In this document: positions 25,901 to 56,290 of the stretch, one piece after another
Position numbering within the stretch: position 1 is the stretch's first letter
How the letters are laid out: each line of letters opens with the position of its first letter
Origin: Candidatus Nomurabacteria bacterium GW2011_GWB1_43_19
Lineage (GTDB): Bacteria; Patescibacteriota; Minisyncoccia; Phycocordibacterales; UBA9973
Assembly: GCA_000999465.1 (NCBI GenBank)
Contig: LCGB01000003.1
Location: 4,252 to 68,251, forward strand
Direction of reading: 5' to 3'
DNA: 64,000 bases
The notes under the pieces: generated by a model
Databases searched by the model: none
What the model was told of the DNA's origin: nothing
What the model saw: only the letters and a program-made list of their open reading frames with translations
Program-made: the position numbers and the translations under genes

Positions 25901-25994
25901 GGTAGTTATTATGGACAAAAGCAAGATAGTTGAGACCAATGTGAAAAAATTACACAAAATTTATCATAAATTTTCAAATGAAAACCGAAACTAA
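22980..25994 (+). CDS. purL: Phosphoribosylformylglycinamidine synthase, PurS-PurL fusion with in-frame Pro/Gly-rich insertion
   Basis: N-terminal PurS-like region (RIYVTPKGKADF...KPGVTDNAGHT), then PurL AIRS domains (VETHNSPSALDPFGGAITG, GKDSM). Residues ~606-640 are encoded by a GC-rich palindromic element. Confidence 0.85.
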   Translation: MISRIYVTPKGKADFINSYLIAHKFSKERIEKIAQALTNPVLENYSINEFPKTEKFSYAIEIGFKPGVTDNAGHTAEETIYDLFHIPSGVGHRDFGCPTPDGTLAVYTSKIFLIHEADRKEAEQIALSLHNPLIERSYIVSRKDLQKNKNLFLEAPRVILEKRVPVINISLDVLDDELVKIGQEGIRDEKGDRRGPLALDLASMKAIQEHFRKLKRNPTDIELESLAQTWSEHCKHTIFANPIDDIHDGLYKTYIKGATNLIRKNKGRRLGGASKNDFCVSVFSDNSGGIVFDKNYLITHKVETHNSPSALDPFGGAITGIVGVNRDTIGFGLGAKPVANVYGFCFGYPEDEQKFFKDKNMTQLMLPPKRIMKGVIKGINVGGNCSGIPTLSGFLKFDDRYRAKPLVFAGTVGIIPRKINGKFLHTKEAKAGDYIVMVGGRVGLDGIHGATFSSVAMDANSPATAVQIGDPITQKKLSDAIVKEARDMGLYNSITDNGAGGLSCSVAEMAKECGGAKVALEKVPLKYPGLCPWEIWISESQERMTLSVPKSKWKKFENLMESRGVEATVIGEFTKAEKCVVKYKGKKIMDIPMDFLHNGLPKHHLYTSPPASLLEPPYSPLSGGNHLPPLIRGGREGLEGMAERPGEIYTKDLENLLGNKNISGFSFVSEQYDHEVQASSVLKPLSGAGRINTDAQIFRPVLDSPKGVVLTSSAYPSYGDISAYNMAACAIDTAVRNIISAGGTLSHLAILDNFCWCSSNDPKRLGQLVGAVKACYDCAVGYGTPFISGKDSMFNDFKGYDERGNPVDISIPPTLLISAISVMPDLYKAVSPEFKKTGDIIYLLGETNDEMGGGEYLKSLGFVGNNTPKVDVKKNMRTYLALEKAIQEGLVSSSLSVTSGGLGIALAKAAVGGMMGCNISLSPIGKTYGVDVKLFSESQGRILVSVPSKNVSAFEKIIKNISFAKLGRVVGGGKVVIMDKSKIVETNVKKLHKIYHKFSNENRN
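24796..24900. repeat. GC-rich nested palindromic element inserted in frame in purL
   Basis: Core CCCCCTTATCAGGGGG...CCCCTGATAAGGGG, flanked by CCTCTCTCC.../...GGAGGTCGGGAGGGG. About 65% GC. Encodes TSPPASLLEPPYSPLSGGNHLPPLIRGGREGLEG within PurL. Confidence 0.7.
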
Positions 25995-26625
25995 ACAATG
26001 CCAAAACTGTCCCGATTTCTTAAATTTCAAGCAACAACTTCGCGGCTGCTATGGACTTCGTAAAAAGTCTTACTGCATTTTGAATAAACAATACAGTAAG
26101 GAAACATATGAGAATTTGAAAGAAAAAATAATTGAAAGGATGAGAGCTGGCAGAGAATGGGGACAATTCTTCCCCAAAAGCATGAGTCCTTTCGCTTACA
26201 ACGAAGCAATTGCGAATGAATATATGCCGCTTTCTAAAGAGAAAGCTGCTGTTCAGGGTTTTCGCTGGCAAGACGATATACCGAGCACCAAAGGGCAGGG
26301 AACTATGGATAATTCAAAATTACCCGAAAATCCTAATGAATATAATGATAATTTAACACAGGAGATATTAACTTGTGAAAAATGCGAAAAAAACTATAAA
26401 CTCATAAAAAGAGAGATTGGTTTTTACAAGAAGAATAAATTACTTCCTCCCCGTCAATGTTTCAATTGCCGGCACGCCCTGCGGATGAGCAAGCGCAATT
26501 CCAGAAATCTTTGGGAGGGTGTTTGCGCTAAATGTGGTAATGTAATACTTACCTCTTACAAACCTGAAGATCAAAAGATTTATAAACTTTACTGCGAAAA
26601 ATGTTATCAGCAAGAAGTATATTAA
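25978..26625 (+). CDS. Cysteine-rich multi-zinc-ribbon protein, short paralog (family member D)
   Basis: It shares CILNKQY[ST]KE.Y, SPFAYNE, the C-terminal zinc-ribbon module (CEKC..Y..I..E..FYKK...P.RQCFNCR) and the terminal YCEKCYQQEVY with the 34811, 50052 and 51402 ORFs. Confidence 0.6.
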   Translation: MKTETKQCQNCPDFLNFKQQLRGCYGLRKKSYCILNKQYSKETYENLKEKIIERMRAGREWGQFFPKSMSPFAYNEAIANEYMPLSKEKAAVQGFRWQDDIPSTKGQGTMDNSKLPENPNEYNDNLTQEILTCEKCEKNYKLIKREIGFYKKNKLLPPRQCFNCRHALRMSKRNSRNLWEGVCAKCGNVILTSYKPEDQKIYKLYCEKCYQQEVY

Positions 26626-33377: not shown

Positions 33378-34766
33378 ATGCCTTTGAACTCAATTTCCCC
33401 AATAGACGGAAGATATGAAAAGTATACCAAGGATTTGGCTCCGTATTTCAGTGAAGCCGCCTCCATGAAGTATAAAGTCCTGATGGAATGCGAGTATCTG
33501 ATAGCGTTGTCGGAAACGGCCGGTATCGGAATGCGGAAGTTGAATACCCGAGAAAAAGCTTCAATAAGAAATTTGTATGCAAAATTTTCGCTTGAAGACG
33601 CGGAGACGATTAGTAATATTGAATTGAAGGGGTATAAAGGCATAAAAGCCACCAATCACGATTTCAAGGCGATTGAATATTTCATCAAGGATAAAATGGC
33701 GAAAACCGGCCTGAAGGATGTGCTGGAATTCGCGCATTTCGGCCTGACCAGCGAAGATGCCAGCAATATTGCCTACGCGTTGATGTTGTCGGATGCTTTG
33801 GAATATGTACTTATCCCTGAAATCAAAAAAATAGTGGAAGAATTGGACACTCTTGCGAAAAAATATAAAAATTTGCCGATGCTGGCCAGGACCCATGGAC
33901 AACCTGCTTCTCCGACCACTTTCGGCAAGGAAATGAAGGTTTTTGTTGCCAGAATTGAAAAAAGAATTGAGGGTCTTGAGAGTATAAAAATAGAAGTAAA
34001 GTTAAATGGAGCCACCGGTAACTATAATGCTCTTTATGTTGCATATCCCAAAATTGACTGGACGAAGTTTAGCCAAAAATTTATTGAAGGTTTTAATAAA
34101 AATCGTTCTCAAAAATTAAAAACAAACTTGATTACTACTCAGATAGAATGTCATGACAGTTATGTGGCTATCTTTGATACTTTAAGACAAATCAATACGA
34201 TTCTCTTGGGTTTCAATCAAGACATGTGGAGGTATGTTTCTGATGGCTGGGTTAGCCAAAGGCCGGTGGAAGGGGAGGTGGGTTCATCCACCATGCCGCA
34301 TAAAATTAATCCTTGGTTTCTGGAAAACAGCGAAGGCAATTTGGGAATGGCCAACGCCATGTTTGAATTTTTCGCGCGAAAGCTTCCCGTTTCCCGCCTG
34401 CAGAGGGACTTATCGGATTCCACCGTTTTACGCAATATTGGAACGGCCTTTGGTCACAGCTTGATTGGCTTCAAATACTTAAATAATCAGCTTGGCAGAG
34501 TTATTGTAAATAAGGAAAAAACGCTGGAGGACCTTAAAAACCATCCGGAAGTAATTACCGAGGCCATCCAGACAATCCTGCGGCGGGAAGGGGTAGCTAT
34601 GCCCTATGAAAAGTTAAAAGAACTGACTCGCGGTAAAAAAGTCACTCTTCAGGATATCCGTAAATTTATCAATGACCTGAAAGTCAGCGAAAAAGTAAAA
34701 AAGGAGCTCTTAAAGATTACTCCGGAAAATTATACCGGCCTGGCTTCCAAACTTGCTTCCAAATAA
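33378..34766 (+). CDS. purB: Adenylosuccinate lyase
   Basis: Fumarate lyase signature GSSTMPHKINP. 462 aa. Confidence 0.9.
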   Translation: MPLNSISPIDGRYEKYTKDLAPYFSEAASMKYKVLMECEYLIALSETAGIGMRKLNTREKASIRNLYAKFSLEDAETISNIELKGYKGIKATNHDFKAIEYFIKDKMAKTGLKDVLEFAHFGLTSEDASNIAYALMLSDALEYVLIPEIKKIVEELDTLAKKYKNLPMLARTHGQPASPTTFGKEMKVFVARIEKRIEGLESIKIEVKLNGATGNYNALYVAYPKIDWTKFSQKFIEGFNKNRSQKLKTNLITTQIECHDSYVAIFDTLRQINTILLGFNQDMWRYVSDGWVSQRPVEGEVGSSTMPHKINPWFLENSEGNLGMANAMFEFFARKLPVSRLQRDLSDSTVLRNIGTAFGHSLIGFKYLNNQLGRVIVNKEKTLEDLKNHPEVITEAIQTILRREGVAMPYEKLKELTRGKKVTLQDIRKFINDLKVSEKVKKELLKITPENYTGLASKLASK

Positions 34767-34768
34767 AA

Positions 34769-34807
34769 ACTTATAACTCCGCTATCGCAGAAATATAAGT
34801 AAGTAAT
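34769..34807 (+). promoter_or_regulatory. Conserved promoter/operator-like motif (copy 4), upstream of Cys-rich gene A
   Basis: ACTTATAACTCCGCTATCGCAGAAATATAAGTAAGTAAT. Ends 3 nt before the ATG. Confidence 0.5.
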
Positions 34808-34810
34808 AAA

Positions 34811-41144: not shown

Positions 41145-41192
41145 TCCATAAGTCAGACATATAGGGATTCCCACATGTCTGACTTATGGGAA
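41145..41192. repeat. Palindromic element, ATGTCWGACAT family, composite tandem pair upstream of rplI
   Basis: TCCATAAGTCAGACATATAGGGATTCCCACATGTCTGACTTATGGGAA. Lies between the ctpA stop and the rplI start. Confidence 0.75.
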
Positions 41193-46952: not shown

Positions 46953-48049
46953 ATATGTTTTTGGAATTTAGATATGTTAAGCACTATGCCCACGGCCATC
47001 AGATATACCATAAGCGAGGTTCCCCCTTGGCTCATAAACACCAGCGGAACACCTGTTAACGGAAAAACTCCGGTAACGGAGGCAATATGCATAAATGATT
47101 GCGCCGTAATGAGTATAACAATTCCATAGACTAAAAGTCCACTAAAATTATCGGGAGTCCGACCGGCAATCCGAAATCCGCGCAGAATAAAAAGAATATA
47201 AAGAAAGATGGTAACAAAGGCACCCGCGAAACCCAATTCCTCTCCTAAAACAGCAAAAATGGAGTCGCCTTGCGGTTCCGGAAGATAACTGAATTTCTGA
47301 ACGCTTTGTCCGAACCCCCGACCAAAGACCCCGCCGGAACCGAGCGTAATAAGTGATTGTTGAATTTGATAAGAAGCCCCCTGCGCGTCTTGGGATGGAT
47401 TAATAAAAGTTTCCACCCGTTTTTGAAGATAAGGCGTAGAATAAACCAGAGCTCCGAGTAAAATTGCCAGCCCGAGACCGGCACCTAAAATATATCTAAT
47501 GGGAACACCGGAAACAAAAAGCATTGATACGCCGGTAACAGCAATTAAAATGAAGTTTTTAGTATCGGGTTGTTTGAGTAAAATTAAAGCGATAACCGCA
47601 AGCATTATCCCAAGCGGCAAAATACCGAATCTAAAATCTTGCACTTTATTTTTTACCCAAGACAACCACGCCGCAAAATAAATCACGAATCCGAATTTTA
47701 AGAATTCTACCGGTTGAAATCTGGCAAAACCAAGATCTATCCATCTTTCCGCCCCGCCATGACTCCATCCTAGAGAAGGGATAAAAACCGCCGCCGTCAA
47801 TAATATTGATCCGAAAAAAATCAAAAAAGAATATTTGCGCCAGAATTTATAATCAATTTTTAGGCATAAATACATTCCTACAAGACCTAACCCAAGTCCC
47901 AAAATTAATTGGCTAAAAAGTATTGAGTAAAAAGTTTTTTCATTTTTAGCCAGGACTCCGAGCGACGCCGAAATAAACATGGCAACTCCGACGGCCAGCA
48001 AGAGACCGACAATTATCAGAAAAAACTTATCTACTTTTTTTTCTTTCAT
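46949..48049 (-). CDS. SEDS family peptidoglycan glycosyltransferase FtsW/RodA
   Basis: Ten-TM SEDS protein carrying the PEPQGDSIFA and GGTS motifs. Confidence 0.85.
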   Translation of the reverse strand: MKEKKVDKFFLIIVGLLLAVGVAMFISASLGVLAKNEKTFYSILFSQLILGLGLGLVGMYLCLKIDYKFWRKYSFLIFFGSILLTAAVFIPSLGWSHGGAERWIDLGFARFQPVEFLKFGFVIYFAAWLSWVKNKVQDFRFGILPLGIMLAVIALILLKQPDTKNFILIAVTGVSMLFVSGVPIRYILGAGLGLAILLGALVYSTPYLQKRVETFINPSQDAQGASYQIQQSLITLGSGGVFGRGFGQSVQKFSYLPEPQGDSIFAVLGEELGFAGAFVTIFLYILFILRGFRIAGRTPDNFSGLLVYGIVILITAQSFMHIASVTGVFPLTGVPLVFMSQGGTSLMVYLMAVGIVLNISKFQKHI

Positions 48050-48065
48050 TGCTTTTTCCCGTCTT

Positions 48066-49121
48066 CTATCTGCTGATAATGGCTAAAATTATGCCGATAA
48101 TGGCAAAAACCACCGAGAGAATCCAGAAACGCATTGTTACTTTGTATGGTGACCAGCCGATGGCTTCAAAATGGTGGTGTATGGGCGCTAACCTAAAAAT
48201 TCTTTTACCTCCACGTAATTTCTTTGAAACAAGTTGTAAAATAACCGAACCGGATGTAATAACGAGTGGTAGAGCGACAACGGGAAGGATTAGGACCGAA
48301 TCGGTAAGGAATGCTAAGGTCGCCAGGGTGATAGTGAGCCCCATGACACCCGTCTCTCCCATATAAAATCTAGCCGGCGGAATATTGAACCAAAGAAAGG
48401 CTAGGATGGCGCCGGTTATAACTCCAGAAAAGGCGGCAATGTCTATTTGGTTGTTGGCATAAGCTATCGCCGAATAAGCGGTAAATATGGCGGCCAGCAC
48501 TCCGCCCGAGAGCCCGTCAATGCCGTCAATAACCCCGCCGGAAAAAGTGGCAAGCGCAACAATCATGAAAAACGGAATAATCAGAATGTCCAGGTAAATT
48601 TCCCCGCCGAAAGGAATATGGAGAGAAGTCATGCCCAGCTTATAGAAAAACCAGAGGCCTATCAAAAAAGAAATCAGAGCGATGAGAAAGGCCTTCCATT
48701 TGCGCCAGGATTTGTCGTCGCGAGCAAATTTTCCAGTACCATAAATTTGAATCAAGTCATCCCATAGACCTATCAATGAACCGACTAAAAGTGTGAAAAG
48801 TGGTATGAATGTCTGATTACGGCTCAAAAAATTCATTTTCTCCGTATAGAGAGTTGGAAACATTATTGAAACGAGATAAAAAATAAGCGTGGTGAAGAGA
48901 ACACCCATCCAGATTATTATTCCGCCTGCGCGAGGAGTTCGGAGTTCCGCTTCCTCGTTGTGAATTTTCGGAAAGTCGGAAGTGTTTATATTGGTGTTCC
49001 GGGAATACTTCTTCCACATCCTGTATTTGTAGAAAAAATGCGTCGCAACCGGGGTCAATAAAAGGCCCATAAAAAAGGCCACAGTCGTCGGCAGAAAGAT
49101 TTTAATCAGGTCCAAATACAT
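48066..49121 (-). CDS. mraY: Phospho-N-acetylmuramoyl-pentapeptide transferase
   Basis: GLWDD and the DGIDGL motif (as VIDGIDGLSGG). Confidence 0.9.
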   Translation of the reverse strand: MYLDLIKIFLPTTVAFFMGLLLTPVATHFFYKYRMWKKYSRNTNINTSDFPKIHNEEAELRTPRAGGIIIWMGVLFTTLIFYLVSIMFPTLYTEKMNFLSRNQTFIPLFTLLVGSLIGLWDDLIQIYGTGKFARDDKSWRKWKAFLIALISFLIGLWFFYKLGMTSLHIPFGGEIYLDILIIPFFMIVALATFSGGVIDGIDGLSGGVLAAIFTAYSAIAYANNQIDIAAFSGVITGAILAFLWFNIPPARFYMGETGVMGLTITLATLAFLTDSVLILPVVALPLVITSGSVILQLVSKKLRGGKRIFRLAPIHHHFEAIGWSPYKVTMRFWILSVVFAIIGIILAIISR

Positions 49122-49175
49122 AGGATGAGTATAGCATTTTTTGATTAAAATGCATCCGTGTGTTATTGTCTTTAA

Positions 49176-49988
49176 GTGAATAATCTAACTTTCAAACACA
49201 TATTGCCGGTCGCCGTATTAATCCTGCTATGTATTCCGATAGCGACTTCTTCGCTTCTGGACTTGGAGCAAAAAAGAGAAAATGAATTGCTTTTGGAGCA
49301 AGAGCGGATTCAAAAAGAGGCCGAATTGAAAATTTACCTGATGGGTAAATTTGAACCGGCAGAAAGGAAGGATTTTTCCTTGATACCCGAGAAATACAAT
49401 GTCGGAGGATACGGGATGTATTTACGGACGGAAACCCTGGATGCATTCTCGCAGATGGCGAACCAAGCGGAGCAAGACGGGGTAAATTTAAGAATCGCTT
49501 CCGCCACCCGGAACTTTACCTATCAAAAAAGCATCTGGGAAAACAAGTGGACCGGTGTGGCCTATGTGGACGGAGAAAATCTTACGAAAAGCATTCCGAA
49601 TGGACTGGAAAGGTTCAAAAAGATATTGGAATATAACTCCGTTCCGGGCATTTCGCGCCATCATTGGGGTACCGATATAGATATCAATAACGCGAACCTC
49701 TCGTATTTCGGGACGAAAGAAGGTAAAAAGGTGTATGAGTGGCTGGTAAATAATGCTTGGATGTTCGGCTTTTGCCAGCCCTATAATTTAAAAGGGAGCG
49801 AACGGCTGACCGGCTACAATGAAGAAAAATGGCATTGGTCCTATCTTCCACTTGCCCAAAATTTTACGCAAGAATATAAAAATTTAATCAAGACAGAAGA
49901 CATCAACGGCTTCCTGGGCGCTGAATATGGTCCGGGAATAAATTTAATCAGCGACTACGTCCTCGGAATTAATCCGGAGTGCCTCTAA
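49176..49988 (+). CDS. M15 family D-alanyl-D-alanine carboxypeptidase (VanY-like)
   Basis: Signal peptide plus SRHHWGTDIDI and a W..NAW.FGF tail, typical of M15B peptidases. Confidence 0.75.
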   Translation: MNNLTFKHILPVAVLILLCIPIATSSLLDLEQKRENELLLEQERIQKEAELKIYLMGKFEPAERKDFSLIPEKYNVGGYGMYLRTETLDAFSQMANQAEQDGVNLRIASATRNFTYQKSIWENKWTGVAYVDGENLTKSIPNGLERFKKILEYNSVPGISRHHWGTDIDINNANLSYFGTKEGKKVYEWLVNNAWMFGFCQPYNLKGSERLTGYNEEKWHWSYLPLAQNFTQEYKNLIKTEDINGFLGAEYGPGINLISDYVLGINPECL

Positions 49989-50008
49989 TCTACGCTATGG
50001 CGTAGATT
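49987..50008 (+). terminator. Hairpin after M15 peptidase gene
   Basis: AATCTACGCTATGGCGTAGATT is followed by a T-rich tract. Confidence 0.5.
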
Positions 50009-50012
50009 GATT

Positions 50013-50051
50013 TATGTTATCACTTTTGGACGGCCGTCAAATTTGATAACA
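50013..50051. repeat. Conserved 3' block of Cys-rich paralogs (copy at gene B) containing palindrome TTTGACGGCCGTCAAA
   Basis: TTATCACTTTTGGACGGCCGTCAAATTTGATAACATTAA is near-identical to 51362-51401 downstream of gene C. Confidence 0.75.
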
Positions 50052-51356
50052 TTAATACATCTCTGCCTGGTAGCACTTTTCGCAATATACAATTTCCGGC
50101 CTATCCGGAGCATAAGAGGTCTCAAATTCCACCGGGCACCTTGCCCCGCCCTGGCGCGGGTCCCCCGCCCCGTGGAAATGATTTTCTTTCTTACACATAC
50201 ATGAACGGTGCCAAAGTTTGAAAGGGTTGGTTCGTTTAACCCGCGCCTGGTGCCGGCAATGAAAACATCTCCTCGGAATAGGTATGTTCATTTTCTTATA
50301 AAAATTCAGTTCGTTCGAGACAATCTTGTAATTTCTCTTGCAGTTTGTGCACGCCAAAATTTCTTCCAGAATTGAATCGCCGACATCATCGATTGATTCG
50401 GGAATTTTTCCCGGCAATAAAGTTTCTTTGCCGGTAGTTTTTTGTATGTTGTTTTGCCAATTATACCCCGCTTCATTTGCTTCTTTTTTCGCAAGCGGAA
50501 ATTGTTCCATAGCGCAAGATTCGTTATAGCCGAAATATGAAAGTTCTACCGGAAAATATTCCCCGTATGAATACTTATTACCTTTTTTATCTAAAAAAGG
50601 CATGGTATCCATGTGCTCCATAATTTTAGGCATAAGTTCCCCATATTGTTCTTTGGTATATTGTTTATTAAAAATGCAATAATTCGTATTGCGTAGCCCC
50701 ACACAGCCGAAAACATGCTTGCAGTTGTGGCAATCGTAAAGAAATTGCGAGTCAACGCAGGCCAAGCAGATTTCCGAATATTTGGTCTGATATGACTTAC
50801 TACAAAGAATGCATTCATATATCCAATTGCTCTCTGACCGGATATTCATGCAGTCCACAATATCTTTGCCTTTCAATATGAAGAAGCTGTACATGACATT
50901 TTCCACGTACCATCCGGAAAAGCACATATAGCAATTCTTGGAAAACCACCAGTCGTGGGTGTATTCGCAGTTCAAGCTGGCAATCCCGTCGTCATTAACA
51001 ATTGCCATGTGCGGGACTCTTTTCATCAACTCAATGAATTGGGCAAAAAATGGCTTTGAAAAATCATAGTCAACCCCGTAACTTTTCGGATCCCATTTAT
51101 CACTCCACCAGCATTTATTGCAGTACACAATAATCCCGGAATCCGGATGGTAAATGGAAATAATTCCTTTGCCGCACAGGTCACATTTGCGATTATAAAG
51201 GGACATATTGTTCCTCCAGGCCCAACGCCTCTGCCTCCGGCAGTCCGGACAAAAGGTTGGCGGGGGAACCTTTATTTTCTCGTAAAATCCGAAATCATCC
51301 GGTTCTATAGTAAAATTCTTTTTGCAATTAACACAATTTTTTATATCCTGTTTCAT
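50052..51356 (-). CDS. Cysteine-rich multi-zinc-ribbon protein, paralog (family member B)
   Basis: Same modules as the 34811 ORF: CVNCKKNFTIEPDDFGFYEKIKVPPPTFCPDCRRQRR ... CVDSQFLYDCHNCKHVFGCVGLRNTNYCIFNKQYTKEQY ... CTNCKRNYKIV..FYKKMNIPIPRRCFHCR ... ETSYAPDRPEIVYCEKCYQAEMY. Confidence 0.7.
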   Translation of the reverse strand: MKQDIKNCVNCKKNFTIEPDDFGFYEKIKVPPPTFCPDCRRQRRWAWRNNMSLYNRKCDLCGKGIISIYHPDSGIIVYCNKCWWSDKWDPKSYGVDYDFSKPFFAQFIELMKRVPHMAIVNDDGIASLNCEYTHDWWFSKNCYMCFSGWYVENVMYSFFILKGKDIVDCMNIRSESNWIYECILCSKSYQTKYSEICLACVDSQFLYDCHNCKHVFGCVGLRNTNYCIFNKQYTKEQYGELMPKIMEHMDTMPFLDKKGNKYSYGEYFPVELSYFGYNESCAMEQFPLAKKEANEAGYNWQNNIQKTTGKETLLPGKIPESIDDVGDSILEEILACTNCKRNYKIVSNELNFYKKMNIPIPRRCFHCRHQARVKRTNPFKLWHRSCMCKKENHFHGAGDPRQGGARCPVEFETSYAPDRPEIVYCEKCYQAEMY

Positions 51357-51361
51357 TTTAT

Positions 51362-51401
51362 TTATATTATCACTTTTGGACGGCCGTCAAATTTGATAAC
51401 A
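51362..51401. repeat. Conserved 3' block of Cys-rich paralogs (copy at gene C) containing palindrome TTTGACGGCCGTCAAA
   Basis: Same sequence as 50013-50051. It directly abuts the start codon of gene B. Confidence 0.75.
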
Positions 51402-53132
51402 TTAATACACTTCTGCCTGATAGCATTTCTCGCAGTATATGATTTCCGGTCGGTTGGGGGCGTAGGATGTTTCAAATTTGTTAAGGCAACCCTTTTTCAT
51501 ACATTTGCGGTGCCAGAGTTTACGTGGGTTACGCAAGACAAACCTGTCTTGTCTGCGACATGAAAAACATTTTTCTGGAATAGGTAGGTTGAGTATTTTG
51601 CATAATGAAAGTTCTAAAGGAATAATTTTGAAAGCGGTTATGCATAAGGGATATTTTTCTTTTTCACTGGAGGAGTTTTGTGAAGAGCATTGAATTGTTT
51701 CTTTTGCAAGATTTTCCTTTATATCGCTAAAAGTTTTCGGCAGATTTTTAGTCAGAAGCGTTATTTGATAATCGCGGGGTGGCCGGTCATACCAGGTGTA
51801 ACCCTTTTTAAGGACTTCATTTTTGGTTAGGGGGAAATAATCTTGCGCCATTGACTCGTTGTAGGCAAACGGTGAGACCCGCGCCGGGAAATATTCCCCC
51901 CATTCCTTTGTCTTCCTCATGTGCTCAATTATCTCACTTTTGAGTTTGGTATATTGCTCCTTTGTGTATTGCTTGTTTAATATGCAGTATTGCCCTTTTT
52001 TAAGACCAAAACATCCAAAACAATTATCCGTTGTAAAGCACATATCGCAGTAACATGAATCCGTTATGCTGTTAAAACAACTTCTGATAAACATTGACCG
52101 GTGCGGCGACTCAACCCCTTGAACTTCATACGATAATTCACCAATAATTACTTCCGTGCAATCCTGACAATCAGCCGTCTTAAACCACACATCTTGCATA
52201 TACGCAGTATCTTTAAGAAGATGACAATTAAATACACGTCGTGCTCGTTGCGTACTTCCTATATAATCTCCTGTCGAATTTTGAATTTTTGAACCATGAT
52301 AATATTTTACCGGAGTACTAATGTTAAGTTCCATAACTTTTTTTTTCGATTCTTCTATGGAACTCCTATTAAATGAAAATTTTTTTAATTTTTCTTCATA
52401 TTGCGTTTTTGTAAGAGCTTTATTAAACCAATAATACTGCCTCTTGCGGAGACCCACACATCCAAAACAATTCAAACATCCCCTACAATCAATACAAAAT
52501 TCAAGTCCGACAGAATCAAAACAATCTTGACACCATACACATTTAGAACACCTTGCAATATTCATACATTCATAACAAAACTCACTTTTAAAGGCCATGT
52601 AGCAGTCGCTTAAAAAGTGACTGTCATGACACCAGCTTCCATACATACACTTTTCATTTGAGCCGCTGGTAACCAGCATATAACACTCCTTGTTGTCCTG
52701 AGACTGGTTTGTGTACTCGCTGTTAACGCTGTTTGAATTAACCATCGCCAGATGTGGCACTTCACGGCGAAGCTCTTCATACTGTTCAAAAAAGGACCGG
52801 CTAAAATCAAAGTCTCGCCCGTAATCCTTGGCATCAAAGGCGTCGGATTTCCAATATTCCTGCTCATACACCGAGAATGGAGCATCTGGGCGATAAATAG
52901 AAATAATGTCTTTTCCTGTAGCGTCGCATTTTCTTTTATAAAAGTTATATTCGTTTCTGTCTAACAAGCGCCTGATGTATCGACAATCCGGGCAAAAGGT
53001 TGGCGGGGGAACCTTTATTTTCTCGTAAAATCCGAAATCATCCGGCTCGATTATAAAATTGCCCTTACAATTCTGACACACCACATTTTGTGATTTATAT
53101 TCCATAACTTTTTTGTCCCGATTCTGATTCAT
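51402..53132 (-). CDS. Cysteine-rich multi-zinc-ribbon protein, paralog (family member C)
   Basis: N-terminal CQNCKGNFIIEPDDFGFYEKIKVPPPTFCPDCRYIRR. The core is richer in CxxC (CSKCVWCQDCFDSVGLEFCIDCRGCLNCFGCVGL; CYCDMCFTTDNCFGCFGL...CILNKQYTKEQY). Also SPFAYNES and C-terminal ETSYAPNRPEIIYCEKCYQAEVY. Confidence 0.7.
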   Translation of the reverse strand: MNQNRDKKVMEYKSQNVVCQNCKGNFIIEPDDFGFYEKIKVPPPTFCPDCRYIRRLLDRNEYNFYKRKCDATGKDIISIYRPDAPFSVYEQEYWKSDAFDAKDYGRDFDFSRSFFEQYEELRREVPHLAMVNSNSVNSEYTNQSQDNKECYMLVTSGSNEKCMYGSWCHDSHFLSDCYMAFKSEFCYECMNIARCSKCVWCQDCFDSVGLEFCIDCRGCLNCFGCVGLRKRQYYWFNKALTKTQYEEKLKKFSFNRSSIEESKKKVMELNISTPVKYYHGSKIQNSTGDYIGSTQRARRVFNCHLLKDTAYMQDVWFKTADCQDCTEVIIGELSYEVQGVESPHRSMFIRSCFNSITDSCYCDMCFTTDNCFGCFGLKKGQYCILNKQYTKEQYTKLKSEIIEHMRKTKEWGEYFPARVSPFAYNESMAQDYFPLTKNEVLKKGYTWYDRPPRDYQITLLTKNLPKTFSDIKENLAKETIQCSSQNSSSEKEKYPLCITAFKIIPLELSLCKILNLPIPEKCFSCRRQDRFVLRNPRKLWHRKCMKKGCLNKFETSYAPNRPEIIYCEKCYQAEVY

Positions 53133-53258
53133 CAGAATCGTGGATCCTCGATTTTTTAAATTTCAAGAAATCGGGACAATTCTGGCATATTTTTGTTTCA
53201 CTTTGCATATTTTTCTATTCTATAATTCTATAGAATATTAGAATACCGAGCAATGTAA

Positions 53259-53846
53259 TTAATTTTCTTCTTTGCTTTCTTCTTCCAAATTTTTGGCGGC
53301 GATTTCTATGGAACCGTTCACTTCTGCCCAGTCCGGCAGTTCTTCCAAAGATTTTATTCCCATATACGACATCAGCTCAAAGCTTGGCTTGTAGATATAC
53401 CGCCGGTTGTCTTTCGGGTCCGTTTCCCTTTCCACCAGTCCGCGCACCGAAAGAGCCCGTAAAATAAAGCTTGAATTGACTCCCCGGATATAGTCAATTT
53501 CCGACCGGCTGATGCCGTTCTTGTAAAGAATGATTGACAGGGTCTCCAAACTGGCCTTGGAAAGTTCTTTATTTAACTCTTCCTTTTGCAGTTTTTCAAT
53601 CAGCGGGCTCAATTCCGGGGCGGTGCCGAGCGTGATTTCGTCGTCCTTTTCAATCAGGACTATTCCCCTATTCTTCAAATTCTCTTTCAATTTTTCTATC
53701 GCTTCGTTTATCTCTAACTGCCCTATCCTTCCTTGTCCGTCCGAAGCCTTAGCGGAGGAGGATAAAATCTCCGCCAGCCTTTTCCGCGACATGGGCTCCC
53801 CTTTCCAGAACAATATGGCTTCAATTTTATTTTGTAAATTACTCAT
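53259..53846 (-). CDS. scpB: Segregation and condensation protein B
   Basis: Winged-helix pair KIEAILFWKGEPMSRKRLAEIL... The track ORF starts at 53894; Met 53846 avoids overlap with scpA. Confidence 0.8.
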   Translation of the reverse strand: MSNLQNKIEAILFWKGEPMSRKRLAEILSSSAKASDGQGRIGQLEINEAIEKLKENLKNRGIVLIEKDDEITLGTAPELSPLIEKLQKEELNKELSKASLETLSIILYKNGISRSEIDYIRGVNSSFILRALSVRGLVERETDPKDNRRYIYKPSFELMSYMGIKSLEELPDWAEVNGSIEIAAKNLEEESKEEN

Positions 53847-54570
53847 TATTTTTACTAATAATAATATCTCCCGCGTGCATTTCCTGGGTCGCATCCACTA
53901 TTCCCTGCCGGATAAGTTCCAACATGGCCAGGAATCCCACAATCATGACTATCTTTTCTTCGCGCGTAGCCGAGGCGACCAGCTGTCCGTTGAAATCTTT
54001 GAAATTCATTTTTAAAGAATTTTTTATCCGATCCGTCAGTTTGTTTATCATCTCTTCAATGCTTACCACTTTTCTCACTTCCACTTCCGGCATTAAAATC
54101 TTTTTCGGCATTGCCCCCAAGACATTCCGGGCAAAAGTCATTATGCTTTTTTTGGTGATTTGTTCATCCGGTAAGAATATCAGGAAATTATTTTTCCGTT
54201 CCAAAGGCGCGAAGATTATTCTCCTGCCGAATTGGCTTTTTATATTTCCTCCCAATTTGGTAAAAAGTTCGTATAAACGCAGCCGCTCTTCTAAATTTTT
54301 TATGTCGCCCTCTTCTTCCCCGGTCAGATCCAGATTGGGCAGGAGCGACTTGGACTTGATTAAAAGCAGGGTGGAGGCCACTAGAATAAAACTGGCAATC
54401 TCGGCCGGGGGCAATCCCCCTAATTTATTCATGTATTTCAAATAGTCCTCGGTAACGGCCGCCAGAGACACGTCGTTGATGAAAAGCTTGCGCTTCTCCA
54501 CCAGTTCTAACAACAGGGCAAACGGACCCTCAAATCCGGAGGTCTTTATTTTATAACTTTGGGTTTCCAC
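53839..54570 (-). CDS. scpA: Segregation and condensation protein A
   Basis: FEGPFALLLELVEKRKLFINDVSL kleisin N-terminus. It lies upstream of scpB. Confidence 0.8.
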   Translation of the reverse strand: METQSYKIKTSGFEGPFALLLELVEKRKLFINDVSLAAVTEDYLKYMNKLGGLPPAEIASFILVASTLLLIKSKSLLPNLDLTGEEEGDIKNLEERLRLYELFTKLGGNIKSQFGRRIIFAPLERKNNFLIFLPDEQITKKSIMTFARNVLGAMPKKILMPEVEVRKVVSIEEMINKLTDRIKNSLKMNFKDFNGQLVASATREEKIVMIVGFLAMLELIRQGIVDATQEMHAGDIIISKNNE

Positions 54571-54615
54571 CCTTGTATATTAGCATTTTTTAAGGAAAAA
54601 GATATAATAAAACTC

Positions 54616-55956
54616 ATGAAAAGAAAATCCACTGCAAAAAGAACCACACGCTCTGCCGCCTACGAACCCAGTAAAATAATCCTTGACCGCTACGCTAAAG
54701 TCCTGGTCCGTTTCGCTCTGGGCGGCGGCAAAGGCATAAAGAAGGGTGATGTCGTCCAGGTCAGCAGTTCCGAGTCCGCCCGCAGGCTTTATTTTGCCGT
54801 ATGTAATGCCATTATTGATGCCGGTGGCCATGTATTGCCGAACTATTCGCCTGACGCAGAACGGGGGGATCGCCGTCGCAGTGAGAGTTTTACCAGATAT
54901 TTTTACGAACACGCGCAGGACCACCAGATGGACCACTTTCCCCATAAATATCTTAAGGGGTTAGTGGACCAGATGGACCATTCTGTTTTTATTCTGGCGG
55001 ATGCCGACCCTCATGCGCTCCGGGGTGTGAACCCAAAAAAAATCATGCGCCGCGGCGTCGCACTCAAGCGCTTTATGGACTGGCGTCATGAGAAGGAATG
55101 GCAGGGTAAATTTACCTGGACCATCGCCTTGTACGGCACATCGGCAATGGCCCGTGAGGCAGGACTGGGCGAGCGCGAATACTGGAGACAAATTATCAAG
55201 GCCTGTTTTCTGGACGAAAAAGACCCAATCAAAAAATGGAAAGATGTGTATCGTAAAATGGAGCACTACCGCACTCGCCTAAACCGGCTGGCTCCAAAGA
55301 CCGACCGGATTTATGTCGTCGGCCCGGATGTGAATCTCTGGGTAAAGCTCGGAGAAAAACGAAACTGGCTTGGGGGCAGCGGCCGCAATATTCCTTCCTT
55401 TGAATTGTTTACTTCGCCGGACTGGCGCGGGACTTCCGGCTGGATTCGCTTCAATCAGCCCCTTTATCGGTATAGTAATAAAATAATCGGCATTGAACTC
55501 GTGTTTGAAAATGGCAGAGTCGTTAAATCCAAGGCCAAAACTAATGAAAAGTTGCTAAAAGAAATGATCGCCACAAAGGGCGCAGATAAGATCGGAGAAT
55601 TTTCTTTGACTGACCGTAGATTTTCGCGCATTACTAAATTCATGGCTGAAACCCTTTTCGACGAGAACATGGGCGGCCCGCACGGCAATACCCACATTGC
55701 AGTAGGTATGTCTTATCGCGACACCTACGCCGGCGATGCCTCCAAACTTTCTAAAAAAGAGGCCGAGGCCTTGGGCTTTAATGATTCCTCAGTGCATACG
55801 GATATGATTTCAACCGCGCCCCGCACCGTTACCGCCCACCTCAAAAACGGCCCCGGCGCCTCTCGGGTTATCTCCCAGGTCCTGGAACGCCTGGAAGGTA
55901 ATATTGCATGGCTGAAAAAGGATGAGAAAAAAATTGAGGGGTTTTTAGAAAAATAA
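54616..55956 (+). CDS. M29 family aminopeptidase (AmpS/PepS-like)
   Basis: N-terminal region YAKVLVRFALGGGKGIKKGDVVQV and overall length are consistent with thermophilic metalloprotease M29. The assignment is moderate. Confidence 0.6.
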   Translation: MKRKSTAKRTTRSAAYEPSKIILDRYAKVLVRFALGGGKGIKKGDVVQVSSSESARRLYFAVCNAIIDAGGHVLPNYSPDAERGDRRRSESFTRYFYEHAQDHQMDHFPHKYLKGLVDQMDHSVFILADADPHALRGVNPKKIMRRGVALKRFMDWRHEKEWQGKFTWTIALYGTSAMAREAGLGEREYWRQIIKACFLDEKDPIKKWKDVYRKMEHYRTRLNRLAPKTDRIYVVGPDVNLWVKLGEKRNWLGGSGRNIPSFELFTSPDWRGTSGWIRFNQPLYRYSNKIIGIELVFENGRVVKSKAKTNEKLLKEMIATKGADKIGEFSLTDRRFSRITKFMAETLFDENMGGPHGNTHIAVGMSYRDTYAGDASKLSKKEAEALGFNDSSVHTDMISTAPRTVTAHLKNGPGASRVISQVLERLEGNIAWLKKDEKKIEGFLEK

Positions 55957-55957
55957 T

Positions 55958-56290
55958 TTAATTGCGCGCGTCTACTTTCGCCGCAACGATAAAATCATTC
56001 TCGGAGAGTCCGCCGATGGCGTGGGTGGAAAGCGAAAGCAGCACTTTGCTGTAGTTTATTTTTATGTCCGGGTGGTGGCCTTCGGATTCGGCGATTTCGG
56101 CCACATTGTTGACGAAATTGATCGCTCCGATGAAATCCTTGAATTTGAATTGTTTGGAAATTTGTTTCGCCCCTTCGTTCAATTCCCAATCCGGTACATC
56201 CCCCATATATTTTAACGCCTCATCTTTGGAGAGCGGCACCGCTCCCCCTTCGCACGGCACGCATTTTTTCTTTAGTAAATCCATTTGCAA
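55958..56290 (-). CDS. Pterin-4-alpha-carbinolamine dehydratase
   Basis: EGHHPD signature (EGHHPDIKINYSKV). 110 aa. Confidence 0.8.
   Translation of the reverse strand: MQMDLLKKKCVPCEGGAVPLSKDEALKYMGDVPDWELNEGAKQISKQFKFKDFIGAINFVNNVAEIAESEGHHPDIKINYSKVLLSLSTHAIGGLSENDFIVAAKVDARN

What the first reader, a model, noticed from the sequence alone, without database searches (positions are those of the whole stretch)
53119..53258. Start codon of Cys-rich gene C buried in a 22-nt inverted repeat, followed by further nested palindromes in the 5' region
On the plus strand, CGATTCTGATTCATCAGAATCG (53119-53140) is a 10+10 inverted repeat whose centre contains the minus-strand ATG of gene C (CAT at 53130-53132). 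It is followed by AATCGTGGATCCTCGATT + TTTTT (a near-palindrome with a T-run) and, further upstream, by ATTCTATAGAAT and related TTCTATA repeats at about 53215-53250. Sequestering the initiation codon in a stable stem is a classic translational control arrangement. The upstream AT-rich palindromes look like operators.
Basis: seen in the sequence. Interest (0 to 1): 0.5.

Follow-up and report, generated by a model that had tools for sequence, protein, structure and literature searches.

The report
Palindromic insert splits gene's 5' end
The hairpin around the annotated start codon is real, but it lies inside a small palindromic DNA insert that split the front of a cysteine-rich gene in a Nomurabacteria genome. 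The gene most likely starts 27 bases further downstream, so this is not a classic start-codon switch.

Summary
The inverted repeats are real and more than chance would give. The interpretation does not hold as stated.

- **Start codon.** Gene C most likely starts at ATG 53105 (MEYKSQNVVCQNC), not at ATG 53132 in the hairpin. No homolog carries the 9-codon extension.
- **Origin of the segment.** The 97 nt at 53175-53079 sit between two copies of the Cys-Gln-Asn-Cys codons. Orthologous "empty" sites lack this segment.
- **Family.** It is a species-specific variant of an insert module found at the same codon site in at least 15 distinct loci carrying family genes. These proteins are only 41-47% identical to each other, yet the module is 85-95% identical in DNA.
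- **Mobility.** The module's core hairpin also occurs in frame inside an RluA-type gene, with filled and empty orthologs, and in intergenic DNA. It therefore behaves as a mobile palindromic element, similar to the Rickettsia palindromic elements.
- **Upstream part.** The ancestral promoter and ATG (53208) survive as a 37-codon small ORF. It runs through the palindromes and stops 8 nt past ATG 53105.
- **Likely mechanism (inferred).** A near-leaderless mRNA is made, the small ORF is translated, and the ribosome restarts at 53105.
- **AT-rich palindromes.** They overlap the -10 boxes and are conserved in three other loci. An operator role is possible but untested.

The parts
53216..53245 (-). 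Roughly 30-nt AT-rich imperfect palindrome that contains the perfect 12-mer ATTCTATAGAAT (53225-53236). It is the promoter region of the small ORF and gene C, and a possible operator.
   Evidence: Inverted repeats I1 and I2. Chance expectation is 0.24. Near-identical sequence lies upstream of family genes in L017 and L043, and after an RseP-type gene in L028.
53217..53230 (-). Two -10-like hexamers TAGAAT (53230-53225 and 53222-53217). The second ends 8 nt before ATG 53208.
   Evidence: In this window strong -10-like hexamers peak exactly 6 nt before start codons (8 of 51 ORFs), which indicates leaderless or near-leaderless mRNAs. Eight of 15 module-bearing loci have a -10-like hexamer 6-9 nt before the corresponding ATG.
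53095..53208 (-). Small ORF of 37 codons (MQSETKICQNCPDFLKFKKSRIHDSDESESGQKSYGI*). Its first 11 codons are the ancestral N-terminus of the gene. Its stop codon TAA (53097-53095) lies 8 nt past ATG 53105.
   Evidence: The N-terminus matches intact orthologs (P0002 and P0007 start MQSETRICQNCKKDF). The promoter plus ATG is 90% identical over 42 nt to L017. The empty-site ortholog L066 reads ATG..TGTCAAAATTGC AAAAAAGAC without interruption.
53176..53187 (-). First copy of the Cys-Gln-Asn-Cys codons (TGCCAGAATTGT). It is the upstream member of a 12-nt direct repeat.
   Evidence: Direct repeat D4, spacing 109 nt (not a multiple of 3).
53079..53175 (-). 97-nt inserted segment between the two CQNC copies. 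It is the species-specific variant of the insert module: palindromic core, then AAAAAAGTT, then a new ATG with 8 further codons.
   Evidence: Absent from the orthologous empty sites L066, L017 and L010. Same site and same 3' part (CGGGAC..AAAAAAGTT ATGGARTATAAATCACAAAATGTGGTG) as the module in L039, L041, L043 and L048-L060.
53113..53179 (-). Outer 11-bp perfect inverted repeat (UUGUCCCGAUU/AAUCGGGACAA) with everything inside it. The CCCG/CGGG part corresponds to the stem of the canonical core element.
   Evidence: Repeat I3. A fold constrained to this stem gives -25.3 kcal/mol against an unconstrained minimum of -27.5. The canonical core hairpin gives -16.4 kcal/mol and shows covariation.
53119..53140 (-). 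As RNA it is a 9-bp hairpin with a UGAA loop. The annotated ATG 53132-53130 sits at its apex and is probably a by-product of the palindrome centre CTGATGAATCAG.
   Evidence: No other copy of this interior sequence exists in the window or in any fetched locus. No homolog has the resulting MNQNRDKKV extension.
53143..53177 (-). Second predicted RNA hairpin (GUCCCGAUUU..AAAUCGAGGAUC, -9.3 kcal/mol). It competes with the outer stem for the UCCCGAUU segment.
53103..53105 (-). Most likely true start codon of gene C, preceded by the A-rich AAAAAAGTT.
   Evidence: This ATG is present in all 17 module copies retrieved. It gives 9 residues before the first Cys, the second commonest spacing among 120 homologs (26 cases). 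The 18 residues given by ATG 53132 occur in none. P0001 is annotated from this ATG.
53067..53078 (-). Second copy of the Cys-Gln-Asn-Cys codons (TGTCAGAATTGT). This copy is the one read into the protein.
51402..53105 (-). Gene C as it is most likely expressed: 567 aa, cysteine-rich, one of a fast-diverging family with four members in the window.
   Evidence: No Pfam, NCBIfam or PDB match.

Best explanation
The nested palindromes are the interior of a small palindromic insertion that interrupted the N-terminal coding region of gene C.

**What happened to the gene.** The ancestral gene started at ATG 53208 (MQSETKICQNC...). It was transcribed from the TAGAAT promoter just upstream as a leaderless or near-leaderless mRNA. 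A module was inserted right after the first Cys-Gln-Asn-Cys codons. The module has three parts: a palindromic core, a short A-rich stretch, and a new ATG with a second N-terminus (MEYKSQNVV-CQNC).

**What the module is.** It is shared, nearly identical in DNA, by many very divergent members of the gene family in related Nomurabacteria and Paceibacteria. Its core hairpin also occurs in unrelated genes and between genes. It is therefore mobile or gene-converting selfish DNA, comparable to the Rickettsia palindromic elements. In this species the middle of the core hairpin has been replaced by about 50 nt of further nested palindromes. That replacement created the in-frame ATG at 53132 by accident.

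**How gene C is probably expressed.**
- Shown: the anatomy, the empty and filled sites, the family of modules, and the promoter-like spacing.
- Inferred: ribosomes start at the 5'-terminal AUG 53208 and translate the 37-codon small ORF through the palindromes, melting them. They terminate at UAA 53097-53095 and restart at AUG 53105, which lies 8 nt upstream of that stop. The structures end 7 nt before AUG 53105. Without translation of the small ORF they would hinder direct ribosome entry.
For: 1. **Empty versus filled sites.**
   - L066 is the 76% identical ortholog. It has the MQSETRICQNC N-terminus running straight into KKDF, with TATAAT 6 nt before the ATG.
   - L017 and L010 lie after scpB, as gene C does, and also lack the insert.
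   - L053 is filled and L046/L007 are empty, yet they share the same upstream and downstream genes at 88% and 83% amino-acid identity.
2. **Module family.**
   - A pattern scan plus look-ups gave 17 distinct sequence copies in 15 loci. All sit after TGY-CAR-AAY, and all have an ATG for the second N-terminus.
   - The module is 85-95% identical in DNA, while the host proteins are 41-47% identical to each other.
   - Two paralogs in one contig (L054) share a 160-nt tract with 2 mismatches. Its 5' edge is exactly the 5' end of the core, and the flanks are unrelated.
3. **The core is a palindromic element in its own right.**
   - It forms a 12-bp hairpin with 89-91% of cells paired. Its covariation score was reached by 0 of 500 shuffles.
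   - A covariance model finds it in frame in an RluA-type gene. L059 is filled, and L051 and L065 are empty at 77% amino-acid identity.
   - The model also finds it downstream of a gene in antisense orientation (L015), and as a remnant in L028 and L039.
4. **True start.**
5. **Leaderless habit.**
   - SD-like motifs occur before only 6 of 51 ORFs.
   - Strong -10-like hexamers peak 6 nt before start codons. TAGAAT lies 8 nt before ATG 53208, and no -10-like hexamer lies before 53132 or 53105.
6. **The small ORF is always closed near the main ATG.** In the 15 copies with a readable small ORF, the stop ends 6-7 nt before the main ATG in 5 and 8 nt after it in 8. It comes earlier in 2. The remnant in L028 keeps a 9-codon ORF that ends at the same TAA.
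7. **The sequence is real.** The same intergenic sequence appears in 6 contigs from 6 assemblies or MAGs.
Against: - Restart after the small ORF is inferred only. There are no transcript, ribosome or protein data.
- Two module copies (L041, L052) have small ORFs that stop 36-83 nt before the main ATG. Coupling therefore cannot be obligatory.
- The module copies are related by descent, so the recurrence of the stop position is not independent evidence.
- No terminator separates scpB from this region. Read-through transcripts would make AUG 53208 internal rather than 5'-terminal.
- The window variant matches the core model only weakly (13.9 bits, E = 0.31). Its homology rests on position and on the shared flanks.
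- How the module spreads is not resolved. It could be transposition, or gene conversion using the repeated CQN codons and the conserved zinc-ribbon codons.
- No clean target-site duplication or terminal inverted repeat defines the 97-nt segment.
- Most module copies were retrieved with a pattern that fixed part of the second N-terminus. This inflates their apparent similarity in that part.
Confidence: 0.6

Rival explanations
1. The palindromes are selfish DNA with no regulatory role. Gene C is translated by direct ribosome entry at the A-rich, unstructured AAAAAAGUU-AUG 53105, independently of the small ORF, which is just a decaying remnant.
For: - A-rich contexts without SD precede most start codons in the window.
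- Remnants are decayed in three loci: a stop codon in L041, a 1-nt loss in L052, and loss of the Gln and Asn codons in L039.
- The same core sits harmlessly in frame in an RluA-type gene.
- The window holds other palindromes inside ORFs.
Against: - In the folded ensemble the U and G of AUG 53105 are mostly paired, and the stems end 7 nt upstream.
- No promoter-like -10 lies closer than the one at the small ORF, so the small ORF's AUG would be the 5'-proximal one.
- The first N-termini keep their ATG and the family consensus in most loci.
Confidence: 0.27
2. One reading: AUG 53132 is the real start, and the 9-bp hairpin with its neighbours is a translational switch (thermosensor or ligand- or protein-controlled) that hides it.
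For: - The hairpin is stable (-10.3 kcal/mol) and the leader folds better than shuffles (z = -3.6 to -3.9).
- Two alternative folds of similar energy exist (-27.5 and -25.3 kcal/mol).
- GAGGA lies 12 nt upstream of AUG 53132.
- Two public annotations call the 576-aa ORF.
Against: - No homolog has the extension.
- The hairpin is not conserved outside this species.
- SD sites are rare in this genome.
- All other module copies start at the downstream ATG and have no in-frame ATG before it.
- No Rfam family matches.
Confidence: 0.07
3. Translational bypassing: ribosomes that started at AUG 53208 take off at the first Cys/Gln/Asn codons, skip the insert, and land on the matching codons 109 nt downstream. 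This would rebuild the ancestral protein MQSETKICQNC-KGNF...
For: - Matched codons TGY-CAR-AAY flank the insert in nearly all copies.
- A hairpin starts immediately after the upstream copy.
- The spacing is not a fixed reading frame (79, 81, 82, 109 and 116 nt).
- In L041 a stop codon follows the upstream Cys codon.
- First N-termini are well preserved.
Against: - Every copy keeps an in-frame ATG for the second N-terminus, including copies with a different second N-terminus (L021, L028).
- Apart from L041, no retrieved copy has a stop right after the take-off codon.
- The nascent chain at take-off would be only about 10 residues, too short for a tunnel signal of the T4 gene 60 kind (my own knowledge of that system).
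- The gap is longer than any known case.
Confidence: 0.03
4. The repeated CGATT/AATCG motifs and palindromes are DNA binding sites (operators) for a regulator, or a DNA-level recombination site. They would not be an RNA structure or a mobile remnant.
For: - Four CGATT/AATCG copies occur within 60 nt.
- The upstream AT-rich palindrome overlapping the -10 is conserved in three other loci. For that upstream part an operator role is quite possible.
Against: - The CGATT palindromes lie 30-95 nt downstream of the likely transcription start.
- They are not conserved in any other locus.
- They occupy the position of the core hairpin of a module found in many genomes.
Confidence: 0.03

Closest known systems
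Rickettsia palindromic elements (RPEs) and similar short palindromic insertions in coding sequences (named from my own knowledge: Ogata et al. 2000, Science)
   Same: - Short (35-100 nt), non-coding, palindromic DNA found in many copies.
- Inserted inside protein-coding genes without destroying them.
- Filled and empty orthologous sites exist, as in the RluA-type gene of L059 versus L051 and L065.
- Nested variants occur (L041, L059).
   Different: - Different phylum (Patescibacteria) and no sequence relation.
- At the cysteine-rich genes the insert is not read through in frame. It breaks the frame and comes with its own ATG and a second N-terminus.
- The unit shared between genes is larger than the hairpin, and its 5' edge is defined by the hairpin.
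Bacterial MITEs and REP-type repeats (Correia, ERIC, BOX, REP/BIME)
   Same: Small structured repeats without a transposase gene, scattered in different contexts, able to alter expression of neighbouring genes.
   Different: - No terminal inverted repeats with a target-site duplication could be defined here.
- No partner transposase or RAYT-type gene was identified.
- There is a strong preference for one codon position of one gene family.
Translational coupling by termination and reinitiation through an upstream ORF that melts an inhibitory structure (ermC-type leaders, overlapping stop/start pairs, 70S scanning)
   Same: The small ORF starts at the 5' end and runs through hairpins placed just before the main start. 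Its stop lies within 6-8 nt of the main AUG in 13 of 15 copies. The main AUG has no SD.
   Different: - The small ORF is a relic of the gene's own N-terminus, not a dedicated leader peptide.
- No stalling signal or ligand is known.
- The arrangement arose by insertion of mobile DNA.
- Function is inferred only.
Programmed translational bypassing (phage T4 gene 60; the 'byp' elements of Magnusiomyces mitochondria). See bioRxiv 10.1101/2022.08.31.505936 and PMC5462505, found; I saw only their titles and abstracts.
   Same: A mobile insert in a coding sequence, flanked by matching codons, with a hairpin starting at the upstream codon.
   Different: - Apart from L041, no retrieved copy has a stop after the take-off codon.
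- The nascent peptide would be about 10 residues.
- The gap is 79-116 nt.
- Every copy carries a conserved internal start codon, which bypassing would not need.

Membership tests
Start-codon-sequestering translational switch (RNA thermometer or riboswitch-like leader) | The functional initiation codon or ribosome-binding site lies in the regulated stem. | tested here: not met
   The codon in the hairpin (53132) has no support from 120 homologs. The conserved start is 53105. SD use is rare in this genome.
Start-codon-sequestering translational switch (RNA thermometer or riboswitch-like leader) | The structure is conserved, with covariation, in orthologous leaders. | tested here: not met
   The 10+10 hairpin and its neighbours are absent from all other loci. 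Only the outer CCCG/CGGG stem has counterparts. No Rfam match.
Start-codon-sequestering translational switch (RNA thermometer or riboswitch-like leader) | A stable fold that persists when flanking sequence is included. | tested here: met
   -27.5 kcal/mol with z = -3.6 for 111 nt, and z = -3.9 for 223 nt.
Short palindromic mobile insertion (RPE- or MITE-like) | Short, non-coding and able to form a hairpin. | tested here: met
   The core is about 35 nt with a 12-bp stem, -16.4 kcal/mol. 89-91% of cells are paired, and the covariation score was reached by 0 of 500 shuffles.
Short palindromic mobile insertion (RPE- or MITE-like) | Copies in unrelated genomic contexts. | tested here: met
   Copies occur in cysteine-rich genes of several subfamilies, in an RluA-type gene (L059), in a possible remnant in an RsmE-type gene (L039), and downstream of a gene in antisense orientation (L015).
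Short palindromic mobile insertion (RPE- or MITE-like) | Filled and empty orthologous sites. | tested here: met
   Window versus L066, L017 and L010. L053 versus L046 and L007. L059 versus L051 and L065.
Short palindromic mobile insertion (RPE- or MITE-like) | Terminal inverted repeats plus a target-site duplication at the element ends. | tested here: inconclusive
   In L059 a CCCG repeat flanks the insert. At the cysteine-rich genes the flanking repeat is the CQN(C) codons, which are also part of the duplicated N-terminus. No consistent duplication could be defined.
Short palindromic mobile insertion (RPE- or MITE-like) | Many copies per genome. | not testable with these tools
   Only fragments of genomes were available. 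There are 2-3 copies per contig in L054 and L059. No canonical copy is in this 64-kb window, though the window has other palindromes inside ORFs.
Upstream-ORF termination-reinitiation coupling | The upstream ORF has a credible start, and its stop lies within a few nt of the main start. | tested here: met
   A -10-like hexamer lies 8 nt before ATG 53208. The stop lies 8 nt past ATG 53105. In 13 of 15 copies with a readable small ORF, the stop ends 6-7 nt before the main ATG or 8 nt after it.
Upstream-ORF termination-reinitiation coupling | Main ORF expression depends on upstream ORF translation. | not testable with these tools
   This needs reporter fusions or ribosome profiling.
T4 gene 60-type translational bypass | Matching take-off and landing codons with a hairpin at take-off. 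| tested here: met
   TGY-CAR-AAY lies on both sides, and the hairpin starts at the next base.
T4 gene 60-type translational bypass | A stop codon directly after the take-off codon, and a long nascent-peptide signal. | tested here: not met
   A stop follows only in L041. The upstream peptide is about 10 residues.
Programmed ribosomal frameshift | A constant frame relation between the upstream and downstream ORFs at a slippery site. | tested here: not met
   The spacings of 79, 81, 82, 109 and 116 nt give all three frame relations.
Intrinsic terminator | A GC-rich hairpin followed by a T-run on the transcribed strand. | tested here: not met
   No terminator-like site was found on either strand in 52800-53600. 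The T-run is antisense to gene C.

The most novel reading that the evidence does not exclude
The insert could be a bacterial chromosomal 'hop' element. Ribosomes that start at the ancestral AUG 53208 would leave the mRNA at the first Cys-Gln-Asn codons, slide over the 79-116-nt palindromic insert, and land on the identical codons downstream. This would restore the uninterrupted ancestral protein, as in phage T4 gene 60 and the mitochondrial 'byp' elements.

A less extreme novel reading is also open, and I put it at about 0.4. In it the module is an active cassette bounded by the hairpin, which homes into the CQN|C codons of this hypervariable gene family and converts leaderless genes into genes coupled to an upstream ORF.
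Probability: 0.03. Interest if true: 0.9.

Novelty: new variant of a known kind. Interest (0 to 1): 0.55.

Why it matters
- **Annotation.** The longest-ORF start at 53132 is probably an artefact of a palindrome. The same trap will affect other palindrome-bearing genes in these genomes.
- **Genome biology.** Ultra-small Patescibacteria genomes seem to tolerate short palindromic insertions inside coding sequences. One insert type travels with its own start codon, so the interrupted gene stays functional. I found no description of this in the literature searches.
- **The host gene family.** The host genes are a large cysteine-rich family of unknown function. They diverge far faster than their neighbours (33-63% against 83-88% amino-acid identity). 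A shared 5' module with a sharp hairpin boundary points to frequent recombination at their 5' ends, which may be how the family diversifies.
- **Translation.** If the restart mechanism holds, this would be a natural case of a leaderless gene turned into a gene coupled to an upstream ORF by mobile DNA.

Tried and rejected
- **Rfam.** Scans of the window region and of canonical copies gave only sub-threshold chance hits.
- **Hammerhead ribozyme.** The window has CUGAUGA, but canonical copies lack it and no model matches.
- **Intrinsic terminator** for scpB or for a plus-strand gene: none found.
- **SD sequestration.** This genome barely uses SD sites.
- **Programmed frameshift on the A-run.** The frame relation is inconsistent across copies.
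- **The 97-nt segment as a clean MITE.** Its own ends are not inverted repeats. The 11-bp inverted repeat is internal and overlaps the direct repeat.
- **Integron attC-like site.** I considered this because of the bulged hairpin next to GTT. On inspection of the sequence I saw no RYYYAAC/GTTRRRY core pair. No integrase search was possible, so I dropped it.
- **Assembly artefact.** Rejected, because the sequence is identical in 6 contigs from 6 assemblies or MAGs.
- **Other copies of the window-specific interior palindromes.** None in the window or in any of the loci fetched up to that point. The only match is the first roughly 24 nt, which recur in frame at the 5' end of the truncated paralog at 25978.
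- **Phage carriage of the core.** No hits in viral contigs.
- **Function of gene C.** No Pfam, NCBIfam or PDB match.
- **Whether all MEYK-type N-termini carry the module.** They do not: L042, L067 and L068 lack it.
Full report
**1. The observation.**
The window comes from a Candidatus Nomurabacteria genome. The same protein and locus occur in GCA_001786405.1 and GCA_001785955.1.

Gene C is the 576-aa minus-strand ORF 51402-53132, downstream of scpA and scpB.
- the perfect 10+10 repeat 53119-53128/53131-53140 around CAT 53130-53132;
- the 16-of-18 near-palindrome 53136-53153;
- the AT-rich palindromes at 53216-53245, including the perfect ATTCTATAGAAT.

One perfect 10+10 repeat is expected about once per shuffled window, but the nested set is not a chance pattern.

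The mRNA strand folds well with flanks (z = -3.6 and -3.9). Two alternative folds have similar energy (-27.5 and -25.3 kcal/mol). In the 9-bp hairpin the AUG sits at the apex, with its U and G in the UGAA loop. The T-run is antisense to the gene, and no terminator is predicted.

**2. The 5' region is not an ordinary leader.**
A 37-codon small ORF starts 76 nt upstream of the annotated ATG (ATG 53208; MQSETKICQNCPDFLKFKK...). Its first 11 residues are the standard N-terminus of this protein family.

The Cys-Gln-Asn-Cys codons occur twice, at 53187-53176 and 53078-53067. They are 109 nt apart, which is not a multiple of 3.

The closest ortholog with DNA (L066, 76% identity) reads ATG-CAA-TCT-GAA-ACC-AGA-ATC-TGT-CAA-AAT-TGC-AAA-AAA-GAC without interruption. 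It has TATAAT 6 nt before the ATG. L017 and L010, which also lie after scpB, are uninterrupted as well. L017 shares the promoter and ATG at 90% identity over 42 nt. The 97 nt at 53175-53079 are therefore an insertion into the N-terminal coding region.

**3. The true start.**
Among 120 homologs the first Cys follows 7 residues in 63 cases and 9 residues in 26 cases. None has 18 residues or the sequence MNQNRDKKV. Starting at ATG 53105 gives MEYKSQNVVCQNC, with 9 residues before the Cys. One NCBI record of the identical protein is annotated that way (P0001, 567 aa).

The ATG at 53132 is the centre of the palindrome CTGATGAATCAG. It exists only in this species.

**4. A family of inserts.**
Look-ups of homologs with similar N-termini (L039, L041, L043) and one metagenome pattern scan gave 17 distinct copies of the same arrangement in 15 loci. 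Each copy has, in order:
- an ATG plus a family-type N-terminus up to TGY-CAR-AAY;
- the core CCCCGAACGAAAGCAAAGCTTCGTACGGGGCAGGC;
- TGY-AAAAAA-GTT;
- ATG-GAG-TAT-AAA-TCA-CAA-AAT-GTG-GTG;
- a second TGT-CAG-AAT-TGT followed by the gene body.

The host proteins are only 41-47% identical to each other, yet the module is 85-95% identical in DNA. Part of that similarity was imposed by my search pattern. However, a covariance model of the core alone also found L021 and L028, where the same core and A-run precede different second N-termini.

In contig L054 two paralogs 2.7 kb apart share a 160-nt tract with 2 mismatches. The tract begins exactly at the 5' end of the core and ends in the conserved zinc-ribbon codons. 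Its flanks are unrelated. That indicates recent copying or gene conversion.

L053 (filled) and L046/L007 (empty) have the same neighbours at 83-88% amino-acid identity. The cysteine-rich genes between them are only 33-63% identical.

**5. The core is a palindromic element in its own right.**
It forms a 12-bp hairpin with an A·A mismatch and a bulged A (-16.4 kcal/mol). Pairing is kept in 89-91% of cells, with compensatory changes such as L060 AGGAA/UUCCU and L048 ACU(A)GAGC/GCUCAGU. The covariation score was reached by 0 of 500 shuffles.

The model finds the core in other contexts:
- in frame inside an RluA-type pseudouridine synthase gene in L059, while the orthologs in L051 and L065 (77% identity) lack it;
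- just after a gene in antisense orientation in L015;
- as a 3' half in L028, and as a possible short remnant in frame in an RsmE-type gene in L039.

L041 and L059 share a nested inner hairpin. L050 carries yet another palindrome, with 23-bp arms, in frame in its RluA-type gene. The window itself has further palindromes inside ORFs.

No Rfam family matches, and no copy is in viral contigs. This is the behaviour of short palindromic selfish DNA of the Rickettsia palindromic element kind.

**6. Where the window copy fits.**
It occupies the same site. It keeps the outer CCCG/CGGG stem and the 3' part CGGGAC..AAAAAAGTT-ATG-GAA-TAT-AAA-TCA-CAA-AAT-GTG-GTG.

About 6 nt (AGGYTG) are missing. The interior has no counterpart elsewhere. 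The one exception is its first roughly 24 nt, which recur in frame at the start of the truncated paralog at 25978-26625.

The core model scores the window copy weakly (13.9 bits). Homology therefore rests on position and flanks.

**7. How gene C is probably expressed.**
This part is inferred.

Only 6 of 51 ORFs in the window have an SD-like motif. Strong -10-like hexamers peak exactly 6 nt before start codons (8 of 51), which indicates common leaderless mRNAs.

ATG 53208 has TAGAAT 8 nt and 16 nt upstream. ATG 53132 and ATG 53105 have no -10-like hexamer within 45 nt. Eight of 15 module-bearing loci show a -10-like hexamer 6-9 nt before the first ATG.

The mRNA therefore most likely begins at or next to AUG 53208. 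The small ORF runs through the palindromes and stops at UAA 53097-53095, 8 nt past AUG 53105. In 13 of the 15 copies with a readable small ORF, its stop ends 6-7 nt before the main AUG or 8 nt after it.

The stems end 7 nt before AUG 53105, whose U and G are mostly paired in the ensemble. The simplest working model is that translation of the small ORF melts the palindromes and the ribosome then restarts at AUG 53105.

Two copies with early stops (L041, L052) show that this coupling is not obligatory.

**8. Alternatives.**
- Direct entry at the A-rich AUG 53105 with functionless palindromes is the main rival.
- A programmed frameshift is excluded by inconsistent spacing.
- Translational bypassing fits the matched flanking codons and the hairpin position. 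It is made unlikely by the conserved internal ATG, the absence of a stop after the take-off codon in all but L041, and the 10-residue nascent chain.

**9. The AT-rich palindromes.**
They overlap the two TAGAAT hexamers. Near-identical sequence lies upstream of family genes in L017 and L043, and after an RseP-type gene in L028. L048 has a different 13+13 palindrome with the shared half-site GGTATTCT at the same place. They are at least promoter sequence. An operator role is plausible and untested.

**10. Verdict.**
The thing itself is a species-specific variant of a previously undescribed palindromic insert module in Patescibacteria. I rate it as a new variant of a known kind of selfish DNA, with moderate interest.

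Noticed in passing
window 25978-26625 (+): This is a truncated 215-aa paralog. Its N-terminus MKTETKQCQNCPDFLNFK... matches the small ORF upstream of gene C (MQSETKICQNCPDFLKFK; 24 nt at 92%). It includes the 5' arm of the window-specific palindrome read in frame, and then joins the C-terminal half of the family protein. It looks like a deletion derivative of a module-bearing gene.
   Followed up: partly
window, all start codons (for example 16736, 17250, 17915, 48066-49121, 53839-54570): SD-like motifs precede only 6 of 51 ORFs. Strong -10-like hexamers peak exactly 6 nt before start codons (8 of 51). Leaderless mRNAs therefore seem common in this genome.
   Followed up: partly
window 9337-9379, 23236-23286, 24836-24877 (inside ORFs); 171-195 and 41146-41189: There are further long, near-perfect palindromes, three of them inside long ORFs. 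A recurring motif CC(C)nnATGTCAGACATnnGGG occurs at 171, 9337 and 41146. These may be other families of palindromic insertions in coding sequence.
   Followed up: no
L050:7545-7652: An in-frame insertion of about 29 codons in an RluA-type gene forms a hairpin with about 23-bp arms (-47.7 kcal/mol). It is absent from the orthologs in L059, L051 and L065.
   Followed up: partly
L053 versus L046; L048 and L057 versus window 48000-56000: Cysteine-rich genes at the same chromosomal position are 33-63% identical, while their neighbours are 62-88% identical. The family is hypervariable or is being exchanged between genomes.
   Followed up: partly
L039, L041, L042 (downstream of the cysteine-rich gene): Genes with weak VirD4/TraG-type (T4SS coupling protein) Pfam hits lie next to the cysteine-rich gene in three loci. 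This may hint at the family's function.
   Followed up: no
window 51357-51401: The 45-nt spacer between gene C and the next paralog holds the palindrome GACGGCCGTC. It also holds a GATAAT hexamer 9 nt before the ATG of the 434-aa paralog.
   Followed up: no
window 34730-34810 and L049 (upstream of its module-bearing gene): About 40 nt upstream of the 590-aa paralog (aaaacttataactccgctatcgcagaaatataagtaa) are nearly identical to the region upstream of a module-bearing gene in L049. That gene's body belongs to a different subfamily, so promoter regions also seem to be shared between divergent family members.
   Followed up: no
L048 (upstream of its small ORF, after scpB): A 13+13 palindrome ATTCTGGTATTCT-CA-AGAATACCAGAAT overlaps the -10 region. 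It shares the half-site GGTATTCT with window 53239-53246, which suggests a common regulator site.
   Followed up: no
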